Assembly (NCBI GenBank): GCA_010405405.1
Contig: MU004234.1
Location: forward strand, 2,515,697 to 2,579,696
Direction: 5' to 3'
DNA from: Microthyrium microscopicum
Lineage: Eukaryota
DNA length: 64,000 bases
The position numbers and the translations under genes are program-made. Within the stretch, counting starts at the first letter, position 1; every line of letters begins with the position of its first letter. Positions 29,625-40,455 of this stretch are shown here, piece after piece. Below the pieces are notes generated by a model. The model did not search any database, was not told the DNA's origin, and worked only from the letters and a program-made list of their open reading frames with translations.

Positions 29625-30848
29625 TCAAAAACCGTTCTTTTTGATGAAATTTTGAATGTGTTGGTATGCATTCATAGCTTCGTAGTGGAAGTTGATTCCA
29701 TGTCCGGAACCGGGCACGACGTACCAGTCGGAATTGTTATTGGCGTTTGGATAGAGATTGTCTTTGACTGCAGCGAGCTTGTTATATGGGAACATACAAT
29801 CACCGTGACAATTTGGTAGGTCGTACTCGCCAGTCACCACTTCTATAGGTCCAGTGAAGTTTTCGGCGACCGCAAATGTTCCAAACGTCAGGTATTCGCC
29901 CAAAGTGATGGTTGACTTCGTCGCGTCAGCAAGTTCGAGGATTTTTGGGTCAAATCCAGGTGCTCGAAAGAAGAAGAACTGGTCACCAAGTGCCGAACTT
30001 GAGGTCAGGTAGCCATTAGACAGATTGGAGAAGCGAGAAGGTACGGCTTGGGAAGCAATTGTTAGATCTAAACCAGCAAATGCAATAGGTTCGCCGTCCG
30101 TGGCATTGGAAAATCCCGTGAAAACGGCAGCGTCAACATCTTTGGGGTATGCGGCCGTGAGAAGTTGCAATTGGAAGCTGCCGTAAGAATGGCCCACGCC
30201 TACAACATGCTCAAATTTTTGACCTGCAATGCCGCCGGTTCGGAGAAGATGGACAAGTTCGTGTACGATGGAAACTTGGAGACCTGTTTGTACAACTTGT
30301 AACGCGTCAGGATGATCGGAGAGACCTGTACCAAGACGATCGAAGAAGAAAGTGGTGTATCCTTGCTCTGCAGCAGAATCTACATATGAGTAGCCCGGCG
30401 CGACATTCCAGTAATTTCGATCAAAACCGCTACCAGGCACGAGAAGTTGAATCGTCGTGGAGTTGATTACGCCCTGGGCAGCAGGGAAGCAGAGCTCCGA
30501 GTAGATTCCATAGGTTCCACTGACATGGGTTTGGTTCCCTACAAGCCGTTGTCTGACTGTTGAGTCGATTTGAACGCTCTCGACGAAGAGTTCCGTGACT
30601 GCAGTTTGATTTGTTGGCACTCCACCGTTGATGTGAAGATTTGTTCCCGATGCTGTGACATCTACTAAGCCTGAAATGCAAATGGCTTTGCCATTGGCCG
30701 ACGGCTGTACAGTTGCATTCGTGAATCCAGCCTTGTAGCCAGCTGGAATATTCGCAATGTCGGTCTGGCTTGTGGGATTTTGGTTGACGGGAGCGGCATG
30801 TACACATGCGATCAGTGCCATGACAGCCGAAAAAGTGCGCGAATGCAT
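29625..30848 (-). CDS. Secreted alpha/beta hydrolase
   Basis: Signal peptide MHSRTFSAVMALIACVHA from ATG 30848. DRLGTGLS, nucleophile elbow GHSYG, GEYD acid and GHG His motifs. Intronless. Confidence 0.9.
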   Translation of the reverse strand: MHSRTFSAVMALIACVHAAPVNQNPTSQTDIANIPAGYKAGFTNATVQPSANGKAICISGLVDVTASGTNLHINGGVPTNQTAVTELFVESVQIDSTVRQRLVGNQTHVSGTYGIYSELCFPAAQGVINSTTIQLLVPGSGFDRNYWNVAPGYSYVDSAAEQGYTTFFFDRLGTGLSDHPDALQVVQTGLQVSIVHELVHLLRTGGIAGQKFEHVVGVGHSYGSFQLQLLTAAYPKDVDAAVFTGFSNATDGEPIAFAGLDLTIASQAVPSRFSNLSNGYLTSSSALGDQFFFFRAPGFDPKILELADATKSTITLGEYLTFGTFAVAENFTGPIEVVTGEYDLPNCHGDCMFPYNKLAAVKDNLYPNANNNSDWYVVPGSGHGINFHYEAMNAYQHIQNFIKKNGF

Positions 30849-31613
30849 TTTCGTTGAAGTATGAATGATTAGGATCTGAAGTAGAGAAGACTGTCGTTTG
30901 AGATGTTCTGTTCTGAAGGTTTGGGTTTCTTCTATTGGCATCCAGGAGCCGCCTACTTATACTCGTGAAGATTCCACTTGCCTGTGTCTAGAGACATGGG
31001 ATGAAGGTTCCGTGTCTTCCGTGCCTCCTGCACACTTTGACAGAGGGACAACTTTCAAGCTCTTTACGGTTGACCGTATACGAGTAACAGTTCGCGACAT
31101 ACATGCATACTGACGTACCGAGACTAAATGTTCGTCAATATAATATCCTGGGAAATGGCATGCTTCAATAGCTTGGATGAAAGTAGTGCTGACAAATGAC
31201 TCGCTAGAAAGCGATGCTACATATTTTCAAGTTACGGGCTTCAGAGAATGTCGGAGTTGGTGTTGTCAAAAGTCAACTGCATTCAAGCTCAGGGGTTGTA
31301 CATTCGCATTTCGTATTTCGTATTTCGCATTTAGCCTGATATTCACCACCCGTTGACTTGGAATCGGAATTTTCGTATCTCGCATTCTGCTGTTTGTCTA
31401 AAGTATGTAATCAAATGCGGTTATACAAATTTGGAACGTGGTAACTCCTTTCCTCTTGTATTCCTGCGGAAAGTATATATATTCCATTTGAAGGTACGAT
31501 TTAATGTCCACAACATTACATCTTTTCCATTCACTTTCATCTACGAGTTCATTCTTCTAAAAGTCAATTAACTGCCACTCAAACTCAATCCGTCAGTCTT
31601 CACCTTCGCAAAA

Positions 31614-32738: not shown

Positions 32739-34208
32739 TCAAAGTCCGCTGAATCCACCACCTAATGGCGAAGATAGGCTTTTGCCTGCCCCGTGTTGCT
32801 TGAACTCCGTCAGAACGAGATTTTGAAGCAGCCAAGTGATCCAGCCTTCCCATTCTTTACCAATCTTGCTATGAATGGTCTGAAGTAGACGTCTACTCAT
32901 GCCCTGCACAAACCACACATGTTCAGCCTTGTTGAGCAGTAGCGAGTAATGGGCCAGTATGATGAGTGCCTCTGGTCTGAACTCTTTAACCATGCTTAAG
33001 AACACTTCTGGGACTTTGATGGGCCAAGCGTATATGATTGTGACTATGTCGACCTGTCGATCGTCGGAAAATGATGCAACCAATGAACAATTGTCCTGTA
33101 GCAAAGCGACGGTATCGTTGAACGCTTGAATTTCCACTTCCGTGAATTTTCCTGGTGATTGTACCCAGAGTTGACTCAGCTCTGTCAGTTTGTCTCTGAT
33201 AACGGGATCCTCAGCATTCGGCGGCGTAGGGTCTTCTGGCCGAGGGAATAGAATTGGCTTCAGAAGGCTGGTTCCCATCCATTCGAACGTCGCATTGAGA
33301 AGTATATATACACCTCGTAGGAGACTGGCCCATTCGATTTGCGAATCCTCCTCAAACGTTGATGTGTCTGAGAAGAATAAATCGGCGGCTTGATTGGACG
33401 ATGCCCAGGCGTACGCAGCGATTAGTGTCGAGAAGGCAAGACACGCATCGCAGTTTTCAGGTGTGATGTTCGACATTGCAATGCGGAACTTGCTCAGTCC
33501 GAGTTCATGATGCGCAGAGGCTTCACCTTGTAGCAAAGCCTTGCGCTCTGGTTGAGAGAGTGCCAAATGTAATGCTGAGAGAGCCAGAATACCATGGAGG
33601 AGGAAGTCGTGCGTGAAAGCAATTTGAGGTACTACCTGCTGCCATATTTGTTGCAATTCTGTCCGATTTGACAATGTGAAGCTGGTAGTAGTGGTGTAGA
33701 AATGCAACAACTCGAGATTGCCTACCTCCAGGCTAAGACCACTCTGAGCGACAACTGATGGGCCGTCTGAGATAGTAGATGTAGATCGAGATCCACCGCG
33801 GATGTTGGGTTGATGTGGAGAGAGTAACGGTCCTCCTATTGTGGCGTTTGTAGCAGTAGACGAGGTCGATATTGTGCTGGGATAAGTGCACGTCGACTGA
33901 AGCCTCCTACAATGGCTACACGATGGTTTCCGCTCATCACACTAGATGAAAATAATCAGCGCCAATTAATCAAGCAAACGAGGTTTTGCAAGGAAGCACA
34001 AGCAATTAACACATGGGACAAGCGTCTTAATTCGACAAGATTTATGGCTGGAATAGATAGGTACAAATGATAGCGAGAGAACAAAAACGAGGCAGTGGCA
34101 TACCTTTATTTTCTTCTGCTTACATTGTTGACATCCGCTTCTACTCTTTTTGTGGGGTCTTCTCTGTCCAGGAACTTTGTGACCTGCGTCCGGCGGTGTC
34201 ACTGGCAT
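32739..34208 (-). CDS. Zn(II)2Cys6 transcription factor, Upc2/Ecm22-like
   Basis: RRPHKKSRSGCQQCKQKKIK|CDERKPSCSHCRRLQSTC across intron 33942-34103. C-terminal LELLHFY...VPQIAF..DFLLHGILALSALHL domain. Confidence 0.92.
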
Positions 34209-35129
34209 TCTTCCTTGGAATGCAGCCTGAAAGAAGCTCGATTACTATGGTACGAACGTGAGGCGATATGCAGACTCAATTTACTTGTCTTTTCAAGATA
34301 ATGTCAGCTAGGAGAGGGTTGAAGAGTTCGAGAGAGTTGTAGACAAAGGATGATACAGTGCTGCCAAGGTTATGTTGTCCCCCCGTCGATTTGGATGGTT
34401 TACGGAACACGCCGTAATTAGGTAGATGTATGGGACGAGATAGGCGTTATAGTGCAAATTTATAGGGCGCCGCCTAGTTATAGCCTATTAGCAACTCTTA
34501 AAAACTATTCTTTCTATATACTATATTTTAGGTTACTTTTAAAGCTATGCTAGTAATGTAAATAGTAGAATAGTAGTATTTAATTACTACTTATTTATTA
34601 CTTTATAATGTCTTAAAATAGTAGTATTCCTACTAGTTAATAGCGTTTAAAGCTCTTTAATAATAATTATATCTTAATAGAGCTAATTAGGCTATAATCT
34701 TAAGTTAGGTTCCTAAAGATATTAAAGCTAAAGTGAGTAGAAGAATAGTATTCCTACTAGTAAAGTTAAAGATCTAGAGTTAAAGATATTAAATAGCATA
34801 GAATTATTAACGCTAAGAGCTATTTTATTAGTAATTAGATCTAATAATAGTAAAGAAACTAAAAATCTAGTACTAGCGACGCTAATAGGGTATCGTTTTA
34901 AAGTTAATAAAGAAGTAAGAGTAATAACTATAAGATATTCTATTAATCTAGTCTAAAATTATTAAAATATACTTATTTAACGTTATTTTATCTTTAATAA
35001 TTCCTTAATATTTTCTATATAACTTCTTACTACTATTTTAGTACTAAAATACTTCTTAATACTATAGTTTATACTTATTAGGTCCTTAGTCCTATCTAAT
35101 CCTTAAATTGCTATATCTTAACGCGTATT

Positions 35130-36870
35130 ATAAGTAAATACTATATACTAGTACCTAAAAAGGCTATAAGATAGTTATTTAAGATCTATATAGATATAGG
35201 TAGAATTTCTTTACTAAAAATGCCTATACTAGCCCTAAAGGCTCTAGCTATATCTTTTTATCTTAGGGATTTAATTCCTATATCTTATATTAAGCCTACG
35301 CTATTACCTATTCTTTATAGTAAAGTTAATATAAATACTATTATTTTTAATTATTTACTAATACTATTAGCTTCTTAGATTTAACTAAATAAGTATTCTT
35401 TATAATAAAATAGTAAGACTTAAGATATCTTAGAATACGCTACTAATAGATTATATCTTTAAAATATTAATATTACTTAACCTCCTTTAGTTAAAGTAAC
35501 CTAAAATATTCCTAATACTACTTAGGATATTATTTATAAATATTAATATAGCCTAAACTATATCTAAGAAATATATTTACTTAGAACTAGTACTTAAAAT
35601 ATTATAATAGATAGTGCTTAGTATCTTAAAATATTTTTACTTAATTTTAGTGCCTTAGTTTTCTAGATTAACTCTACGCTATTAGCTTTACTAGTATCTA
35701 AATTCCCTCCTAAAATTACTATTATTATAAAGATTTAAAAGTAAGAAATACCTACTATTAAGAATAAATTTAATTATTTTTACTAAAGCCTAGTTAACGC
35801 CTTTAAAAAGACTTAGGAATAGCTTAATTTACGCTTAAAAGAGTAAGGAATAATATTTAGTTCTACTATCTTAATATAAACGTTTTTAAAGTAATAGATA
35901 AAGAAAAGTACTTAAGATCTTTAGTATAGCTTTAGTATTAATTTAGGCTTAAGTAATAAAGAGCTTAATAGTATTCTTACTCTAATCTAGCGCTAAATTA
36001 CTTACTAGTACTAGTCTAATTTCTATAAGAACTCTTAATGCGTTAGTAATTCTAAATAGAAGGTTTTATTTAGTATTATTAAGCTTAAATAACCTCCTCT
36101 AGCGTTAGTAATAGTAGCTAAGATGCTTAAATAGGCGAATTTACGTTATAAAGAATACTAACGCTATATAAATTCTACCTTAGAATTTGTTATATTATTA
36201 AGCAAATAGCTATATTAGGATAATTACTATCTAAATTACCTTAATAGTAGTTATTACTAGATTAATTCTCGTAGTAAATATATCTTCCTAATAGCTATAA
36301 TGTTAAACGAGTAGGCCTAAAAGATAGCCTCTAATAAGGCTAGAATTAAAGCATTACCTAAAATTATAATATTAAACCTATTAGAAGCTATAGCTATTTA
36401 AAGAGCTTGTTATTAAACTATAACTATAATAATAATAATAGCATTAAATTCTACTTTATAACCTATTTATATTAATATTTACTACGATTAAGAGAGCTTA
36501 AACTTACTTAGTAGAGCCTCTAGTAGGGTCTAGAGTAGCTAGAACTAGCGTATGCGCTTAGGCTCTTTACTACGTTGTAGTAGATTACCTATAGCTTTAG
36601 GTTTAATTCTTAAGCTATTGTTAGTCTAAAAATATTATCTAGAGGAAGAATTTAATATATTTAATAGCTAGTATAATATTAATTTAGGGTTCTAATAGTA
36701 TTTAGTGTTTTTAGCTATTATTAAGGCTCTTTAGGATAAAGGATATTATTTAGGTTATATAGTAGGTAAAGATTATACTTAGTTTAAGTACCTTTTAATA
36801 GGAGCTATAATATAGGATTTTAATGATATAATCTAACTTTATAAGGAATTTATTACTAATTTTCGTTAGT
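35130..36870 (+). pseudogene. Accessory ORF2 of the Tc1-like element (putative Zn-binding protein), RIP relic
   Basis: One frame is kept for ~1.7 kb with only TAA/TAG stops, and an in-frame ATG survives at 35220. De-RIP 36205-36360 reads KWPCQDNHCPN...YCWIDSRGKHIFL...LNEWA, followed by an S/T-rich tract and a helical C-terminal part. Confidence 0.65.
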
Positions 36871-36899
36871 ACTATATATATTAAATTTCTCTTCTTAAT

Positions 36900-38314
36900 A
36901 ATACTAGTTCTAAGTAGAATAGGTAAGATTTATAGTAGTAGTAGTTTAATATTAAATTCTTATTATAGTATAAAGAAGTTAGAATTAGAAGTAATAATTA
37001 AAGCTATTTCCTAGATATTCTTATATAACCCTAGGCCCTACTAGGTCTAAATAATATAACTACTATATTAAATATATTTTATAGCTTAATTCCTATTTGC
37101 TACTTCCTTACTTAAAACCTTTATTCCTATACTTAAAAACTATTTAAACGATATAGATTTTTTATAAGAATACTACTAAGTGTTGTTACCCTTAAGCTAA
37201 GCCTTTAAATTACTAAAGAACAAAGAACTCCTTAATAGGGTTAAAATCTAGGCAGTAAGGTAGTAAGAATTCTAATTATACCTCTATAGTCTTAAATATC
37301 TTATAGACCTCTTTACTATAATAAAAGGACGTATTATCTATAATAATAATACTTTAAAGAAGAGGATAAGGCTAATAGATATCTAGAAGCTTATTCTTAT
37401 ACTACTAAGTAAAACTATTACTATTACTATTAGCTTTATAGATATCTACTAATAGGATACTATTTATACTATATACTAGTAAGATATTATACTATTTAGT
37501 ATAGTTACTAATATTCTTTAATTTTTACTTATCTAACGCTAAAAAGCTCTTAATATTTAGTTTAATACCTACTTTACTCTATCTTATTATTCTTAAGACG
37601 CTAGTAATACTATATCTTACTTTATTAATAAAGATAAGCTATTTAGTAGTATATTTTAATATCTATAAGTAATATTTATAATAAGCTTTAGTAGAGCGCT
37701 AAGCTATAATAACCTTTAACTACTAAAGGTAAGAATACGCCTAAAGATTAATTAGTTTATTACTTACCTTCTTTTTAGTATAGTTATATTAATTTAGGAC
37801 TTAAGAGATAGTAGTTTAACTTAATACTACTTTATACGTATTCTAGATAAACTCTAATATCTTAATTTATATTAAATTAAGTTAATAAAGAAGATATTTA
37901 AATAATCTAACCTATATGTTAAAATCTATTACTAGTAGAGGACCTAAATATACCTTTATAGAATTAAATAAGCCTTTAATCTTTATTATTTAATACTAAT
38001 ATTTAATTATATTTTTATAGTATCTAATAGCTTTAGTAATAAAACTCTTATTATAGCTAAGCTTAATTATATCCTATACCTATTTTTAGCAATACTAATT
38101 AAGATAGCGCAATATATTAAAGAGTTATTTAGTATAGTGTTAAAATACTAAAAATTAAGATATTTAATAAAGATTTAGCTTTAGGATAGATAATATTATA
38201 ATTTAGGAAGAAGATAATATTAGTAAAATTAATCTAAGAGGCTATGCCTACAAATTTATATACTAACGCACTCTTTAGATCTTCTCGCCCTCTAATTAGG
38301 CCCTAAAGCGCCAT
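36900..38314 (-). pseudogene. DD34E transposase, RIP relic
   Basis: De-RIP motifs QLIFIDE (~37625), ILPAYSIDG, RSIIVMDNASFHH (~37337) and LEFLPPYCPDFNPIEE (~37233). There are 34 codons between the second D and E. A 7-bp duplication GTTCTTT frameshifts the gene just after the E. Confidence 0.9.
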
Positions 38315-38702
38315 TTCATAATTTCAGGGGGGGGACAACATAACCTTGGCAGCACTATAGAAGGATGATTTGTACCCAATGAAGTTATGCGCTCCTGCTC
38401 CGCCACACCCTATACGACGTATAACTTACAGAGCAGATAAGCCTCCTCCCACTTTGCTTGAAACCTGTGGAGTCCTGGTAATACTGGAACGAAAGGAGAA
38501 TAATAAATAAATTCATCTTGCATACAAATTTCAGATCTTGTTCCAAAATCTTATCACTGTGTATGACCTGGAATATCTTCAAAACAATCCTGATATACTC
38601 TTTTGATGCAAAGACAGCCCATATTTCATTATGATGGGAATAAAACGCCTAATATCAAAACTAGAGCGGCCAACTAATACTCTACGGTAATCGTCAGCCG
38701 AG

Positions 38703-40455
38703 CTACCAGCCCTCAACATTTCTCATTCGAACAGCCATATCTTTCTTTGGCTTGCTTGTGATTCCACCACCAATTTCCAGCACATAGTCCTTATTTCCAA
38801 ATTCAATCTCAAAGCGACCCACCCAAGTCGCCAATAAACACGCAAACTCCGCCTTTGCAAAGTCTCGCCCAATGCACCCGCGTGGACCATCCAAGAACGT
38901 CAAGAAGCTGTAATGGCTGTCTGCACCACCTGTTTTGGCTCGGCCAGGACCCATCCAGCGATCTGGGTTGAATATCTTCGCATCTGGACCCCATAGTTCT
39001 TCGTTGACGTTTACGCTCCACGGACAGACGACGACTGCTGTGTCCTTTGGTATGAAATGGCCTAAAATCGTGTCGTCTTCTTTCGCGATCCGGATTGTTA
39101 GTGGCACGGATGGGTAGACGCGCAGCACTTCATTGCACACGGCATTGAGATAGGGGAGTTTGTCGATGGAGGCGGATGTGATCGTGCTCTCCGGGTCAGA
39201 AAGTGATGGCAAGTTGGCGCGGATTTCCTCGCGCAGGCGCGATTGGACTTCGGGGTGTTGGCAGAGATGGTAGCAGGCCCAAGCCATGGCTGAAGCGGTG
39301 GTTTCGTGGCCGGCAGCAAGGAATGTCATAAGTTGGTTGGCGAGATCCTCATCGCTAAAACCGCCAGACTCGATGGCGACGGAGAGAATGTCAGTGCCTG
39401 TAGAGCCTTTTTCGAGTGCAGCGCGCTTTTGTGCAATGAGCTCGAAGGAGATCTTGCGGATGGTGTGACGGGCGGCGATGATGTCTTGGTTTCGCTTGAG
39501 AGGCAGTCTTGTTGTCAGCCAAGTGGGTAGGAAGAAGCCCATCAATTGGGCTACACGATTTCCACCGCCAATGTTGAACACATGTCGGTAGCAAGTGTTT
39601 AGCTCGCCACTTGGATCTTTGATAACGTTGAAGTCGTGGCCCATACCAGCAACGCCGATGATGTCTAGCGTGACGCGACTGGCCCAGTCATTGATATCTA
39701 TCAAACATCCATCCTTGGAATCCTCACCGGTTTGGTTGTTATCAATATGTTTACTCATGGCTTCTGTGACTTCTTGTCCCTTGGACCAGAAGGTTGGGTA
39801 TAGTTCTTGCGCTGTCAGTTGAGAGTCTTCGGATTCTCCATGCCACTAACCTTTGATATGTCTGAAAGAAAAGGCAGGATTTAAAAGCTTGCGCTGCCTT
39901 CTATGTTCATCGCCTTCAGCAAACAAGATCCCGTTCCCAAGCAGCCGGCCTATGGTCAACCGGAAGAAGCTAGGCTTGATGAATTGATAGCTCTTGGTTG
40001 ACAAGACCTCTTGGAGTGCTTTCGGGGATGTGAGGAGAACACGCTGCGAGTTGAAGATGTGGTTGTATCTCATGATACCATTATTGGGAACTTCATCAGC
40101 CCATCTTGCCATAGGTGCACCAGAAGGCTCTCTCATAATAGTTGGGAAATGCCCAAAAAGCAGATTGCCACCCTGTTTTAATTGTCAGTATTGTCTAGAA
40201 ATATATCGCAATTGGTGACCATACCTTAGGTGCTGGGAGATTTCGCAAGGGGCTTAAGAAGAAGGGATAGACGAAAGCTTTGAACGCAAATAATACAGGC
40301 ATTGAAAGTACATATAGTATTAAGAAAGCACGAAACCAACTGCTAACAGATCCCGACTGCAGCGCGATACCTGGCAAGAAACCGCGACTCTGCAAAAAAG
40401 ATAGAGCACCGCATATGTAGAATAGCTGCGCGTACGTTATCGACAAGTAACCCAT
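38703..40455 (-). CDS. Cytochrome P450 monooxygenase (CYP617/FUM15-like type)
   Basis: N-terminal TM segment, introns 40173-40224 and ~39806-39850. AAGHETT, EVLR, PDRW and heme motif FLDGPRGCIG. Family assignment is tentative. Confidence 0.93.

What the first reader, a model, noticed from the sequence alone, without database searches (positions are those of the whole stretch)
34356..38357. Two-gene Tc1/IS630 transposon: DD34E transposase plus a convergent ~580-codon accessory gene with a putative Zn-binding motif
Seen: TIRs, TA TSD, a 4002-bp length, the transposase confined to the right ~1.4 kb, and one uninterrupted plus-strand frame over 35130-36870 whose stops are all TAA/TAG. Established: Tc1/mariner elements normally encode only a transposase and are about 1.3-2.5 kb. 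Inference: the de-RIP motif W-x-C-x4-C-x-N...YCWID..GKH..L....L..W, followed by an S/T-rich linker and a helical tail, is a dedicated accessory protein (targeting, regulation or anti-silencing). ORF2 is as heavily RIP-mutated as the transposase, so it was probably part of a multicopy unit rather than a one-off capture.
Basis: partly seen in the sequence, partly recalled or inferred. Interest (0 to 1): 0.8.

Follow-up and report, generated by a model that had tools for sequence, protein, structure and literature searches.

The report
Dead 4-kb fungal Tc1-like transposon
This is a mutation-wrecked copy of a multi-copy fungal Tc1-like jumping gene that is twice the usual size, and its extra 2 kb still carries the three-base rhythm of protein-coding DNA, but what that extra part encoded cannot be read from this copy.

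Summary
The element is real. It spans 34356-38357 (4002 bp), with 29-nt inverted ends, TA on both sides, and a core at 23% GC against 46-48% in the flanks. Its dinucleotide indices are classic for RIP. A Tc1-like DD34E transposase remnant lies on the minus strand at about 38200-37049.

That frame has 56 stops in 580 codons, and all six frames have almost only TAA/TAG stops.

- Purine periodicity reached the observed value in 2 of 500 null sequences.
- 14 of 14 bins have the same sign.
- In a simulated-RIP model, the plus frame beats all 400 null sequences.

The strand leans plus but is not resolved. Contigs from the same sample show the left part is as repeated as the transposase, and short internally deleted derivatives exist.

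No homologue or Pfam domain was found for the left part. The known transposase also found nothing in single-sequence searches, so those blanks carry no weight. The proposed Zn motif is untestable here.

Verdict: probably a two-coding-region Tc1-like family. ORF2 identity and function are unknown.

The parts
34354..34355 (.). Left TA, one copy of the target-site duplication
   Evidence: Sequence; included in the inverted-repeat arms.
34356..34384 (+). Left terminal inverted repeat, 29 nt, starts CAGTG
   Evidence: pair I1 (97% complementary over 31 nt including TA).
34385..34490 (.). Left subterminal region, little RIP (34356-34480 is 0.49 GC). It shares islands with the right end: TAATTAG, GCGTTA, AAATTTrTAGG and CATAGCCT.
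   Evidence: Alignment of the two ends; composition.
34481..38240 (.). RIP-mutated core: GC 0.227, TpA/ApT 1.69, (CpA+TpG)/(ApC+GpT) 0.10
   Evidence: Flanks read 0.46-0.48 GC, 0.65-0.70 and 1.29-1.41.
34806..36905 (.). About 700-codon stretch with coding-like periodicity in a single register. Plus strand is favoured but not resolved.
36207..36320 (+).
   Evidence: Located. No domain match. Not testable on this copy.
37049..38200 (-). Tc1-like transposase remnant, about 380 codons. It is broken by many RIP stops and by a 7-nt duplication. The start is approximate. The end is taken at the first stop after the ...AIKYIXYSSY motif.
37222..37497 (-). DDE_3 (PF13358) match. The second D (IIIIDN) is followed by 34 residues to NPI-K, where the catalytic E now reads K. 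The first D now reads N (LIFINK).
   Evidence: translation.
37215..37221 (.). 7-nt tandem duplication (AAAGAAC twice) that most other copies lack. It shifts the transposase from the minus frame starting at 38355 to the one starting at 38357.
   Evidence: table 4: left out in 8 contigs of X1, 6 of X3, 6 of X4 and 1 of X5. Sequence and frame check.
38329..38357 (-). Right terminal inverted repeat. The last base is A where G is expected, a G-to-A change.
   Evidence: Other copies end ...GCACTG followed by TA (table 7).
38358..38359 (.). Right TA of the target-site duplication

Best explanation
This is a full-length but dead copy of a multi-copy, 4-kb Tc1-like (DD34E) cut-and-paste transposon in a fungal genome. 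It inserted at a TA between a Zn2Cys6 transcription-factor gene and a P450 gene, and RIP then destroyed it.

Shown:
- The ends, the TA duplication, the transposase remnant and the RIP signature.
- The left part is repeated in the genome like the right part.
- Short internally deleted derivatives exist.

Inferred:
- The 2.1 kb between the left end and the 3' end of the transposase gene was a second protein-coding region that travelled with the family.
- It most likely lay on the plus strand, tail-to-tail with the transposase.
- Movement was by the DD34E transposase acting on the inverted ends, as in other Tc1 elements.
- The second product was not needed for the chemistry. Whether it was an accessory factor or a passenger is open, and its fold and family are unknown.
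For: Element anatomy.

RIP.

Transposase:
- DDE_3 at E 4e-5 with D-34-E spacing.
- The C-terminus reads on canonically (NPIKEFF then SNLKAXLKG...) once the private 7-nt duplication is skipped.

Coding register in 34806-36905:
- Purine fraction by codon position is 0.543/0.490/0.431, chi2 17.4, p 1.7e-4, with the same order in each of three 700-nt thirds.
- In a scan against order-3 Markov nulls, 2 of 500 reach the observed value at 2100 nt and 3 of 500 at 1500 nt.
- The purine excess of position 1 over position 3 is positive in 14 of 14 consecutive 150-nt bins, and not on either side of that stretch.
- A periodic Markov model was trained on host ORFs after simulated RIP. It called the right frame in 23 of 24 held-out 1170-nt pieces and 6 of 6 2100-nt pieces. 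It puts the plus frame 21.5 nats above its antisense partner and 39-56 above the other four. Its lead over the six-frame mean, 37.2, exceeds all 400 null sequences, whose maximum is 36.5.
- The same models recover the register of the known transposase.

Repetition:
- 533 contigs of run X1, 543 of X3 and 404 of X4 (one sample) lie on the stretch at 80% likeness or more, in all 30 bins.
- Summed contig depth over the left part is similar to that over the transposase part and 5-25 times the flanks. The tool warns that this is not a copy number.
- Differences are mostly transitions in both directions.
- Joints 34435>38141 and 34548>38220 are end-to-end deletion forms.
- A second organism (X5, 27 contigs, 19 of 30 bins) holds pieces of both parts.
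Against: - No homologue or domain was found for the left part in either strand.
- The strand is not settled. 21.5 nats is 1.4 null SD. The control transposase is a tie on strand (-0.6 nats) and is called on the wrong strand by the purine/pyrimidine model.
- Stop-class (YRR) codons are 10.1% in the plus frame against 11.0% in its partner, which does not discriminate.
- The plus-frame signal is strong only in 34956-36005. Between 36006 and 36755 another minus frame scores as well or slightly better.
- No contig shown bridges the left part and the transposase in another copy, so physical linkage in other copies is inferred from similar cover only.
- The register is the same as the transposase C-terminal frame, which also fits a minus-strand reading.
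Confidence: 0.5

Rival explanations
1. The second coding region lies on the minus strand, in the same direction as the transposase. It would be either a downstream gene or a long C-terminal extension of the transposase, read in the frame that starts at 38357.
For: - After the private 7-nt duplication at 37215-37221 is skipped, the transposase continues in exactly the minus frame that shares the register of the periodic stretch. The chance of this is 1 in 3 if the two are unrelated.
- That minus frame is the best frame in windows 36456-37205 and 34506-35105.
- The purine/pyrimidine models cannot tell the two strands apart.
Against: - The simulated-RIP model favours the plus frame by 21.5 nats overall and by 15.8 in the first third.
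- The plus frame has fewer stops (56 vs 67 of 580).
- The transposase reads to a typical C-terminal motif followed by stops at 37049, 37043 and 37040. The typical Tc1 end is recalled, not tested.
- The minus-frame scores at 36456-37205 (7-10) are below the 95% null value of 11.7.
Confidence: 0.2
2. The left 2.1 kb is a passenger. It would be a piece of host gene, or the relic of another mobile element, picked up once by a Tc1-like element before that copy multiplied. It would be coding in origin but with no role in the element's life.
For: - Coding-like periodicity without any transposon domain.
- Tc1/mariner transposases are sufficient for transposition on their own (established knowledge).
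- A gene fragment inside the Aspergillus niger Ant1 element is a precedent (recalled, no call).
Against: - No internal inverted or direct repeats mark a nested element. In purine/pyrimidine letters the best inverted match at the borders scores 26 against a null 95% of 27, and there are no long internal repeats.
- The stretch keeps one register for 2.1 kb with no sign of frame-shifting introns or decay.
- It matches nothing else in the 64-kb window.
- None of this excludes a capture.
Confidence: 0.2
3. The left part never coded for protein. It is long non-coding filler, and the periodicity is chance or a by-product of repeat structure.
For: - No open frame, no homologue and no domain.
- The purine/pyrimidine hexamer scores beyond 36.0 kb are not individually significant (null).
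Against: - Scan-corrected periodicity gives 2 of 500.
- 14 of 14 bins have the same sign.
- The frame lead beats 400 of 400 nulls.
- The signal is at least as strong as that of the bona fide transposase (chi2 17.4 vs 4.6).
- No tandem or internal repeats explain it.
Confidence: 0.12

Closest known systems
Tc1-like (DD34E) elements of the Tc1/mariner superfamily, including fungal ones such as impala
   Same: - TA target duplication.
- Inverted ends starting CAGTG.
- A DDE_3-type transposase with 34 residues between the second D and the E.
- Short internally deleted (MITE-like) derivatives.
- Cut-and-paste mechanism inferred.
   Different: - 4002 bp instead of roughly 1.3-2.5 kb.
- About 2.6 kb lies between the 3' end of the transposase gene and the left end, and 2.1 kb of it has a coding-like periodicity.
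- This copy is inactivated by RIP.
TBE1 and Tec elements of ciliates, which are Tc1/mariner relatives with several ORFs
   Same: They have a DD34E transposase plus further ORFs inside one element. TBE carries a zinc-finger protein and one Tec ORF lies on the complementary strand (passages of PMC7325037).
   Different: - Ciliate germline elements, with very long ends in Tec (about 700 bp).
- Three ORFs, including a recombinase in Tec.
- No sequence relation was tested or shown here. This is an analogy of layout only.
RIP-degraded transposon relics in ascomycete genomes
   Same: - C-to-T and G-to-A mutation focused on CpA.
- TpA/ApT 1.69 and (CpA+TpG)/(ApC+GpT) 0.10.
- The edges of the repeat unit are spared.
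- Multi-copy family.
   Different: Nothing unusual, except that mutation stops sharply about 125 bp inside each end and does not reach the flanking genes.

Membership tests
Tc1/mariner superfamily, Tc1-like DD34E group | TA target-site duplication | tested here: met
   TA at 34354-34355 and 38358-38359. Other copies end ...CACTG followed by TA (table 7).
Tc1/mariner superfamily, Tc1-like DD34E group | Terminal inverted repeats bound by the transposase | tested here: met
   29-nt ends with one mismatch, plus imperfect subterminal similarity. Binding itself was not tested.
Tc1/mariner superfamily, Tc1-like DD34E group | DDE_3-type catalytic domain reaching Pfam's own threshold | tested here: inconclusive
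   PF13358 at E 4e-5 and 23.9 bits, against a cut-off of 28.6. The match is cut short by RIP stops and by the 7-nt duplication.
Tc1/mariner superfamily, Tc1-like DD34E group | 34 residues between the second D and the E | tested here: met
   Counted in the translation: IIIID, then 34 residues, then NPI-K. The E position now reads K and the first D reads N, both G-to-A changes.
Tc1/mariner superfamily, Tc1-like DD34E group | N-terminal paired-like helix-turn-helix DNA-binding domain | tested here: inconclusive
   No Pfam HTH match at E up to 10. The sequence there is too mutated to judge.
Tc1/mariner superfamily, Tc1-like DD34E group | Single gene, length about 1.3-2.5 kb (usual, not strictly defining) | tested here: not met
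   4002 bp, with a second coding-like stretch.
RIP-affected repeat | TpA/ApT above 0.89 and (CpA+TpG)/(ApC+GpT) below 1.03, on repeated DNA | tested here: met
   1.69 and 0.10 in the core against 0.65-0.70 and 1.29-1.41 in the flanks. Repeated in the source sample. The threshold 0.89 is quoted in PMC4112212; 1.03 is recalled.
   No Pfam match. The ligands are inferred by reading Y as C or H, and other copies could not be fetched to check.
TBE/Tec multi-ORF Tc1/mariner elements | Ciliate host, several defined ORFs, long ends | tested here: not met
   The host is a fungus: Zn2Cys6, Fungal_trans_2 and KCH domains in the flanking genes. The ends are 29 nt.

The most novel reading that the evidence does not exclude
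A family of fungal Tc1-like DD34E transposons that carries, as a fixed part of the element, a second gene of about 500-700 codons from no described family. The gene would lie tail-to-tail with the transposase and serve the element, for example in targeting, regulation or defence against silencing.
Probability: 0.2. Interest if true: 0.6.

Novelty: new variant of a known kind. Interest (0 to 1): 0.4.

Why it matters
Tc1/mariner elements are the textbook case of a one-gene transposon. A fungal family that multiplied as a 4-kb, two-coding-region unit would add a new layout to the superfamily. It would also offer a candidate element-encoded helper or a clear case of gene capture.

There is a practical point too. 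In heavily RIP-mutated DNA, stop-codon patterns and single-sequence homology searches are useless, but purine/pyrimidine periodicity survives and can still locate former reading frames.

As it stands this copy is dead and its second product is unreadable. The value lies in pointing to a family worth reconstructing from all its copies.

Tried and rejected
Homology for the left part, read with X at stops:
- Pfam on all six frames of the element found nothing but DDE_3.
- Pfam on both strands of 34806-36905 at E up to 10 found 0 families.
- phmmer of the plus frame (700 aa) against 1.84 billion representatives gave 0 hits at E 0.001.
- The word-seeded search of the minus frame gave 0 at E 0.1.
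- The same search of the plus frame against shorter proteins gave 0 at E 1.
- PDB sequences gave one chance-level row (ribosome-binding factor A, E 0.099) for the plus frame and none for the minus frame.

Control: the known transposase, read the same way, gave 0 hits in the word-seeded search and 0 in PDB at E up to 10. These blanks therefore say nothing about novelty.

Other routes that gave nothing:
- The protein atlas does not take translations with stops read through, and I did not pursue it.
- The whole genome is not held.
- Earlier findings held nothing.
- Scans of metagenome contigs with the 22-nt end and with a transition-tolerant 44-letter pattern from 36520-36563 gave 0 matches each.
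- blastn of the element against the window showed no other copy, and neither did a purine/pyrimidine-collapsed blastn. A first blastn with +1/-1 scoring gave only composition-driven 58% alignments and was discarded.

Ideas tested and dropped:
- A second transposase copy in the left part was suggested by a 119-nt, 74% DNA match between 35335-35448 and 37399-37513. Protein comparison did not back it.
- No ends of a nested element were found.
- Strand calls from stop-class codons and codon-class likelihoods failed on the control.

Further notes:
- Five well-supported transversions fall in the left part. By my own count table 3, three of them are at third codon positions, which is too few to use.
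- Absence of cover for organism B in 11 of 30 bins is not evidence of absence.

Literature:
- Three full-text searches, and passages of PMC7325037, PMC5751038, PMC4112212 and PMC3441728, turned up no fungal two-gene Tc1 element and no paper holding the first 14 nt of the end sequence in this context.
- Only listings and matched passages were read. Supplements were not opened and could hold element libraries that bear on this.
Full report
WHAT IS THERE

Positions 34356-38357 are a discrete 4002-bp insertion.
- The two ends are inverted repeats. The arms 34354-34384 and 38329-38359 are 31 nt including the flanking TA and 97% complementary.
- Islands of similarity continue to about 135 nt inside each end.
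- TA stands on both sides.
- GC falls from 0.46-0.48 in the flanks to 0.227 in the core 34481-38240.
- TpA/ApT is 1.69 and (CpA+TpG)/(ApC+GpT) is 0.10, against 0.65-0.70 and 1.29-1.41 in the flanks. This is the classical signature of repeat-induced point mutation aimed at CpA.
- The outer 120-125 nt at each end are largely spared (GC 0.49 and 0.44).
- The host is a fungus. The nearest ORFs carry Zn2Cys6 / Fungal_trans_2 domains (32742-33941, minus) and a cytochrome P450 domain (38706-39845, minus), so the element sits between two genes.

THE TRANSPOSASE

With stops read as X, the only Pfam family found in any of the six frames is DDE_3. It lies on the minus strand at 37222-37497, at E 2e-4 for the whole frame and at E 4e-5, 23.9 bits, for the 430-residue piece. 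That is below Pfam's 28.6-bit cut-off.

The translation shows ...LIFINK......IIIIDN... and, exactly 34 residues later...LDFNPIKEFF. This is DD34E spacing. The first D now reads N and the E now reads K, both G-to-A changes.

Most other copies in the source sample lack 7 nt at 37215 (8 contigs in X1, 6 in X3, 6 in X4, 1 in X5; table 4). In this copy AAAGAAC is tandemly duplicated there. Skipping it moves the reading from the minus frame that starts at 38355 to the one that starts at 38357. The protein then runs on as ...NPIKEFF / SNLKAXLKG...AIKYIXYSSY, with stops at 37049, 37043 and 37040. I take the gene as about 38200 to 37049. That this looks like a usual Tc1 C-terminus is my recollection, not a test.

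It does not hold as written.
- Every one of the six frames of the element has 142-186 stops in about 1333 codons, with 0 or 1 TGA. This is because RIP turns TGA into TAA.
- In 35130-36870 the named plus frame has 56 stops in 580 codons, so it is not uninterrupted.
- It does have the fewest stops of the six frames (the others have 67, 68, 75, 88 and 93) and the longest open run in that range, 67 codons.
- The proposed Zn motif lies at about 36207-36320. It requires Y to be read as C or H, N as D, S as G and stops as W. Nothing I could run tests that.

TESTS THAT RIP CANNOT ERASE

RIP makes only transitions, so the purine/pyrimidine string is that of the ancestor.

1. Purine/pyrimidine hexamer model. 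I trained a phase-specific model on 13 long host ORFs (15.6 kb). Leave-one-out gave the right frame in 31 of 46 pieces of 300 nt, 15 of 19 of 600 nt and 10 of 11 of 900 nt. On the element it picks the register of the known transposase at 37.0-38.1 kb. Through 34806-36905 it picks a single other register, that of the plus frame starting at 34356 and its antisense partner. Four windows reach 2.5-5.2, where the null 95% and 99% values are 1.3 and 3.0.
2. Model-free purine periodicity. The purine fraction at the three positions of that register over 34806-36905 is 0.543/0.490/0.431 (chi2 17.4, p 1.7e-4), in the same order in each 700-nt third. The transposase itself gives only chi2 4.6.
3. Scan correction. 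In a scan over all windows against order-3 Markov nulls, 2 of 500 reach the observed value at 2100 nt, 3 of 500 at 1500 nt and 36 of 500 at 900 nt.
4. Sign test. The excess of purine at position 1 over position 3 is positive in 14 of 14 consecutive 150-nt bins from 34806 to 36905. It is mixed on either side.
5. Simulated-RIP model. I mutated the host ORFs in silico with context-dependent rates that reproduce the element's dinucleotide make-up and trained a three-periodic Markov model on them. On held-out pieces it called the right frame in 45 of 57 (600 nt), 23 of 24 (1170 nt) and 6 of 6 (2100 nt). On the left part the plus frame is best, 21.5 nats above its antisense partner and 39-56 above the rest. 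Its lead over the mean of six, 37.2, exceeds all 400 non-periodic null sequences, whose maximum is 36.5. In 450-nt windows the plus frame scores 13.4-17.2 from 34956 to 36005, against a null 95% of 11.7 and 99% of 14.1. Beyond 36.0 kb it is not individually significant, and another minus frame equals or slightly exceeds it at 36006-36755.

STRAND

RNY periodicity is symmetric, so the register is firmer than the strand.
- The 21.5-nat lead of the plus strand is 1.4 null SD.
- The same model gives a tie for the known transposase (-0.6), while host genes of that size give +6.6 to about +23.
- The purine/pyrimidine model and codon-class counts put the transposase on the wrong strand or give nothing.
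- The periodic register equals the frame in which the transposase ends. This would be a 1-in-3 coincidence for an independent gene and is expected for a minus-strand continuation.

I therefore keep a minus-strand reading as a live rival.

REPETITION

No whole genome is held, and the window contains no other copy. Public runs were found: four from one sample (organism A) and one from organism B.
- Laid at 80% likeness or more, 533, 543 and 404 contigs of X1, X3 and X4 fall on the stretch, in all 30 bins.
- Summed contig depth inside the element is roughly 5-25 times that of the unique flanks. It is similar over the left part and the transposase part. The tool cautions that this is not a copy number.
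- Differences are mostly transitions in both directions. In X1 they are A>G 194, T>C 216, C>T 185 and G>A 168, against 209 transversions. This is what independently RIP-mutated copies should show.
- Joints 34435>38141 and 34548>38220, one contig each, are seen in all three runs of the one sample. They are end-to-end deletion forms of about 300 bp.
- Organism B contributes 27 contigs in 19 of 30 bins, from both parts.

Linkage of the two parts inside other copies is not directly shown.

HOMOLOGY

Nothing was found for the left part in Pfam, in 1.84 billion representative proteins, in the word-seeded collection or in PDB sequences. The known transposase also finds nothing by single-sequence search. 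These blanks only show that such searches are blind at this level of mutation. No ends of a nested element were found at the borders of the periodic stretch, and there are no long internal repeats.

COMPARISON AND VERDICT

By its ends, target site and catalytic spacing this is a Tc1-like member of the Tc1/mariner superfamily. It departs from the usual one-gene, 1.3-2.5-kb layout.

The only multi-ORF relatives I found in print are the ciliate TBE and Tec elements (passages of PMC7325037). These are an analogy of layout, not relatives shown by any test here. Three literature searches found no fungal two-gene Tc1 element.

I rate it a new variant of a known kind, with moderate interest. The second coding region is probably real (about three in four). 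Its orientation is probably convergent (somewhat better than even, if it is real). Its identity, and whether it is an accessory gene or a passenger, are unknown.

Noticed in passing
window 1-26000: A 26-kb AT-rich block (GC 0.21, TpA/ApT 1.70, (CpA+TpG)/(ApC+GpT) 0.06). It is presumably a pile of RIP-destroyed repeats and ends abruptly at about 26 kb. It holds no copy of this element, even in purine/pyrimidine letters.
   Followed up: partly
window 32742-33941 (-) and 38706-39845 (-): The element lies between a Zn2Cys6 transcription-factor ORF and a cytochrome P450 ORF. An alpha/beta hydrolase ORF lies at 29628-30956. RIP stops inside the element's ends and does not reach these genes.
   Followed up: partly
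window 34345-34355 and 38358-38369: The target site is itself a near-repeat. AAGGATGAT stands just left of the element, and again 3 nt to the right of it. The empty site would read AAGGATGA-TA-GAAGGATGAT.
   Followed up: no
window 34435>38141 and 34548>38220 (joints in contigs of the source sample): There are short, MITE-like derivatives of the family that keep only about 80-190 nt of the left end and 140-220 nt of the right end.
   Followed up: partly
window 36096-36352: A contig of a second, differently labelled organism (run X5) is identical over 257 nt. Its other pieces differ by 7-17%. This is possibly a shared or recently exchanged copy.
   Followed up: no
window 34506-35105: In the simulated-RIP model the minus frame sharing the ORF2 register scores 14.3 and 12.5 here, near the 99% null value. 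This is left of where the plus-frame signal begins. Unexplained.
   Followed up: no
window 36633-36666 / 36870-36903, and 36224-36277: A 34-nt inverted repeat (79% complementary, 94% in purine/pyrimidine letters) lies just left of the gap between the two coding regions. A 54-nt purine/pyrimidine palindrome lies at 36224-36277. Neither is significant on its own.
   Followed up: partly
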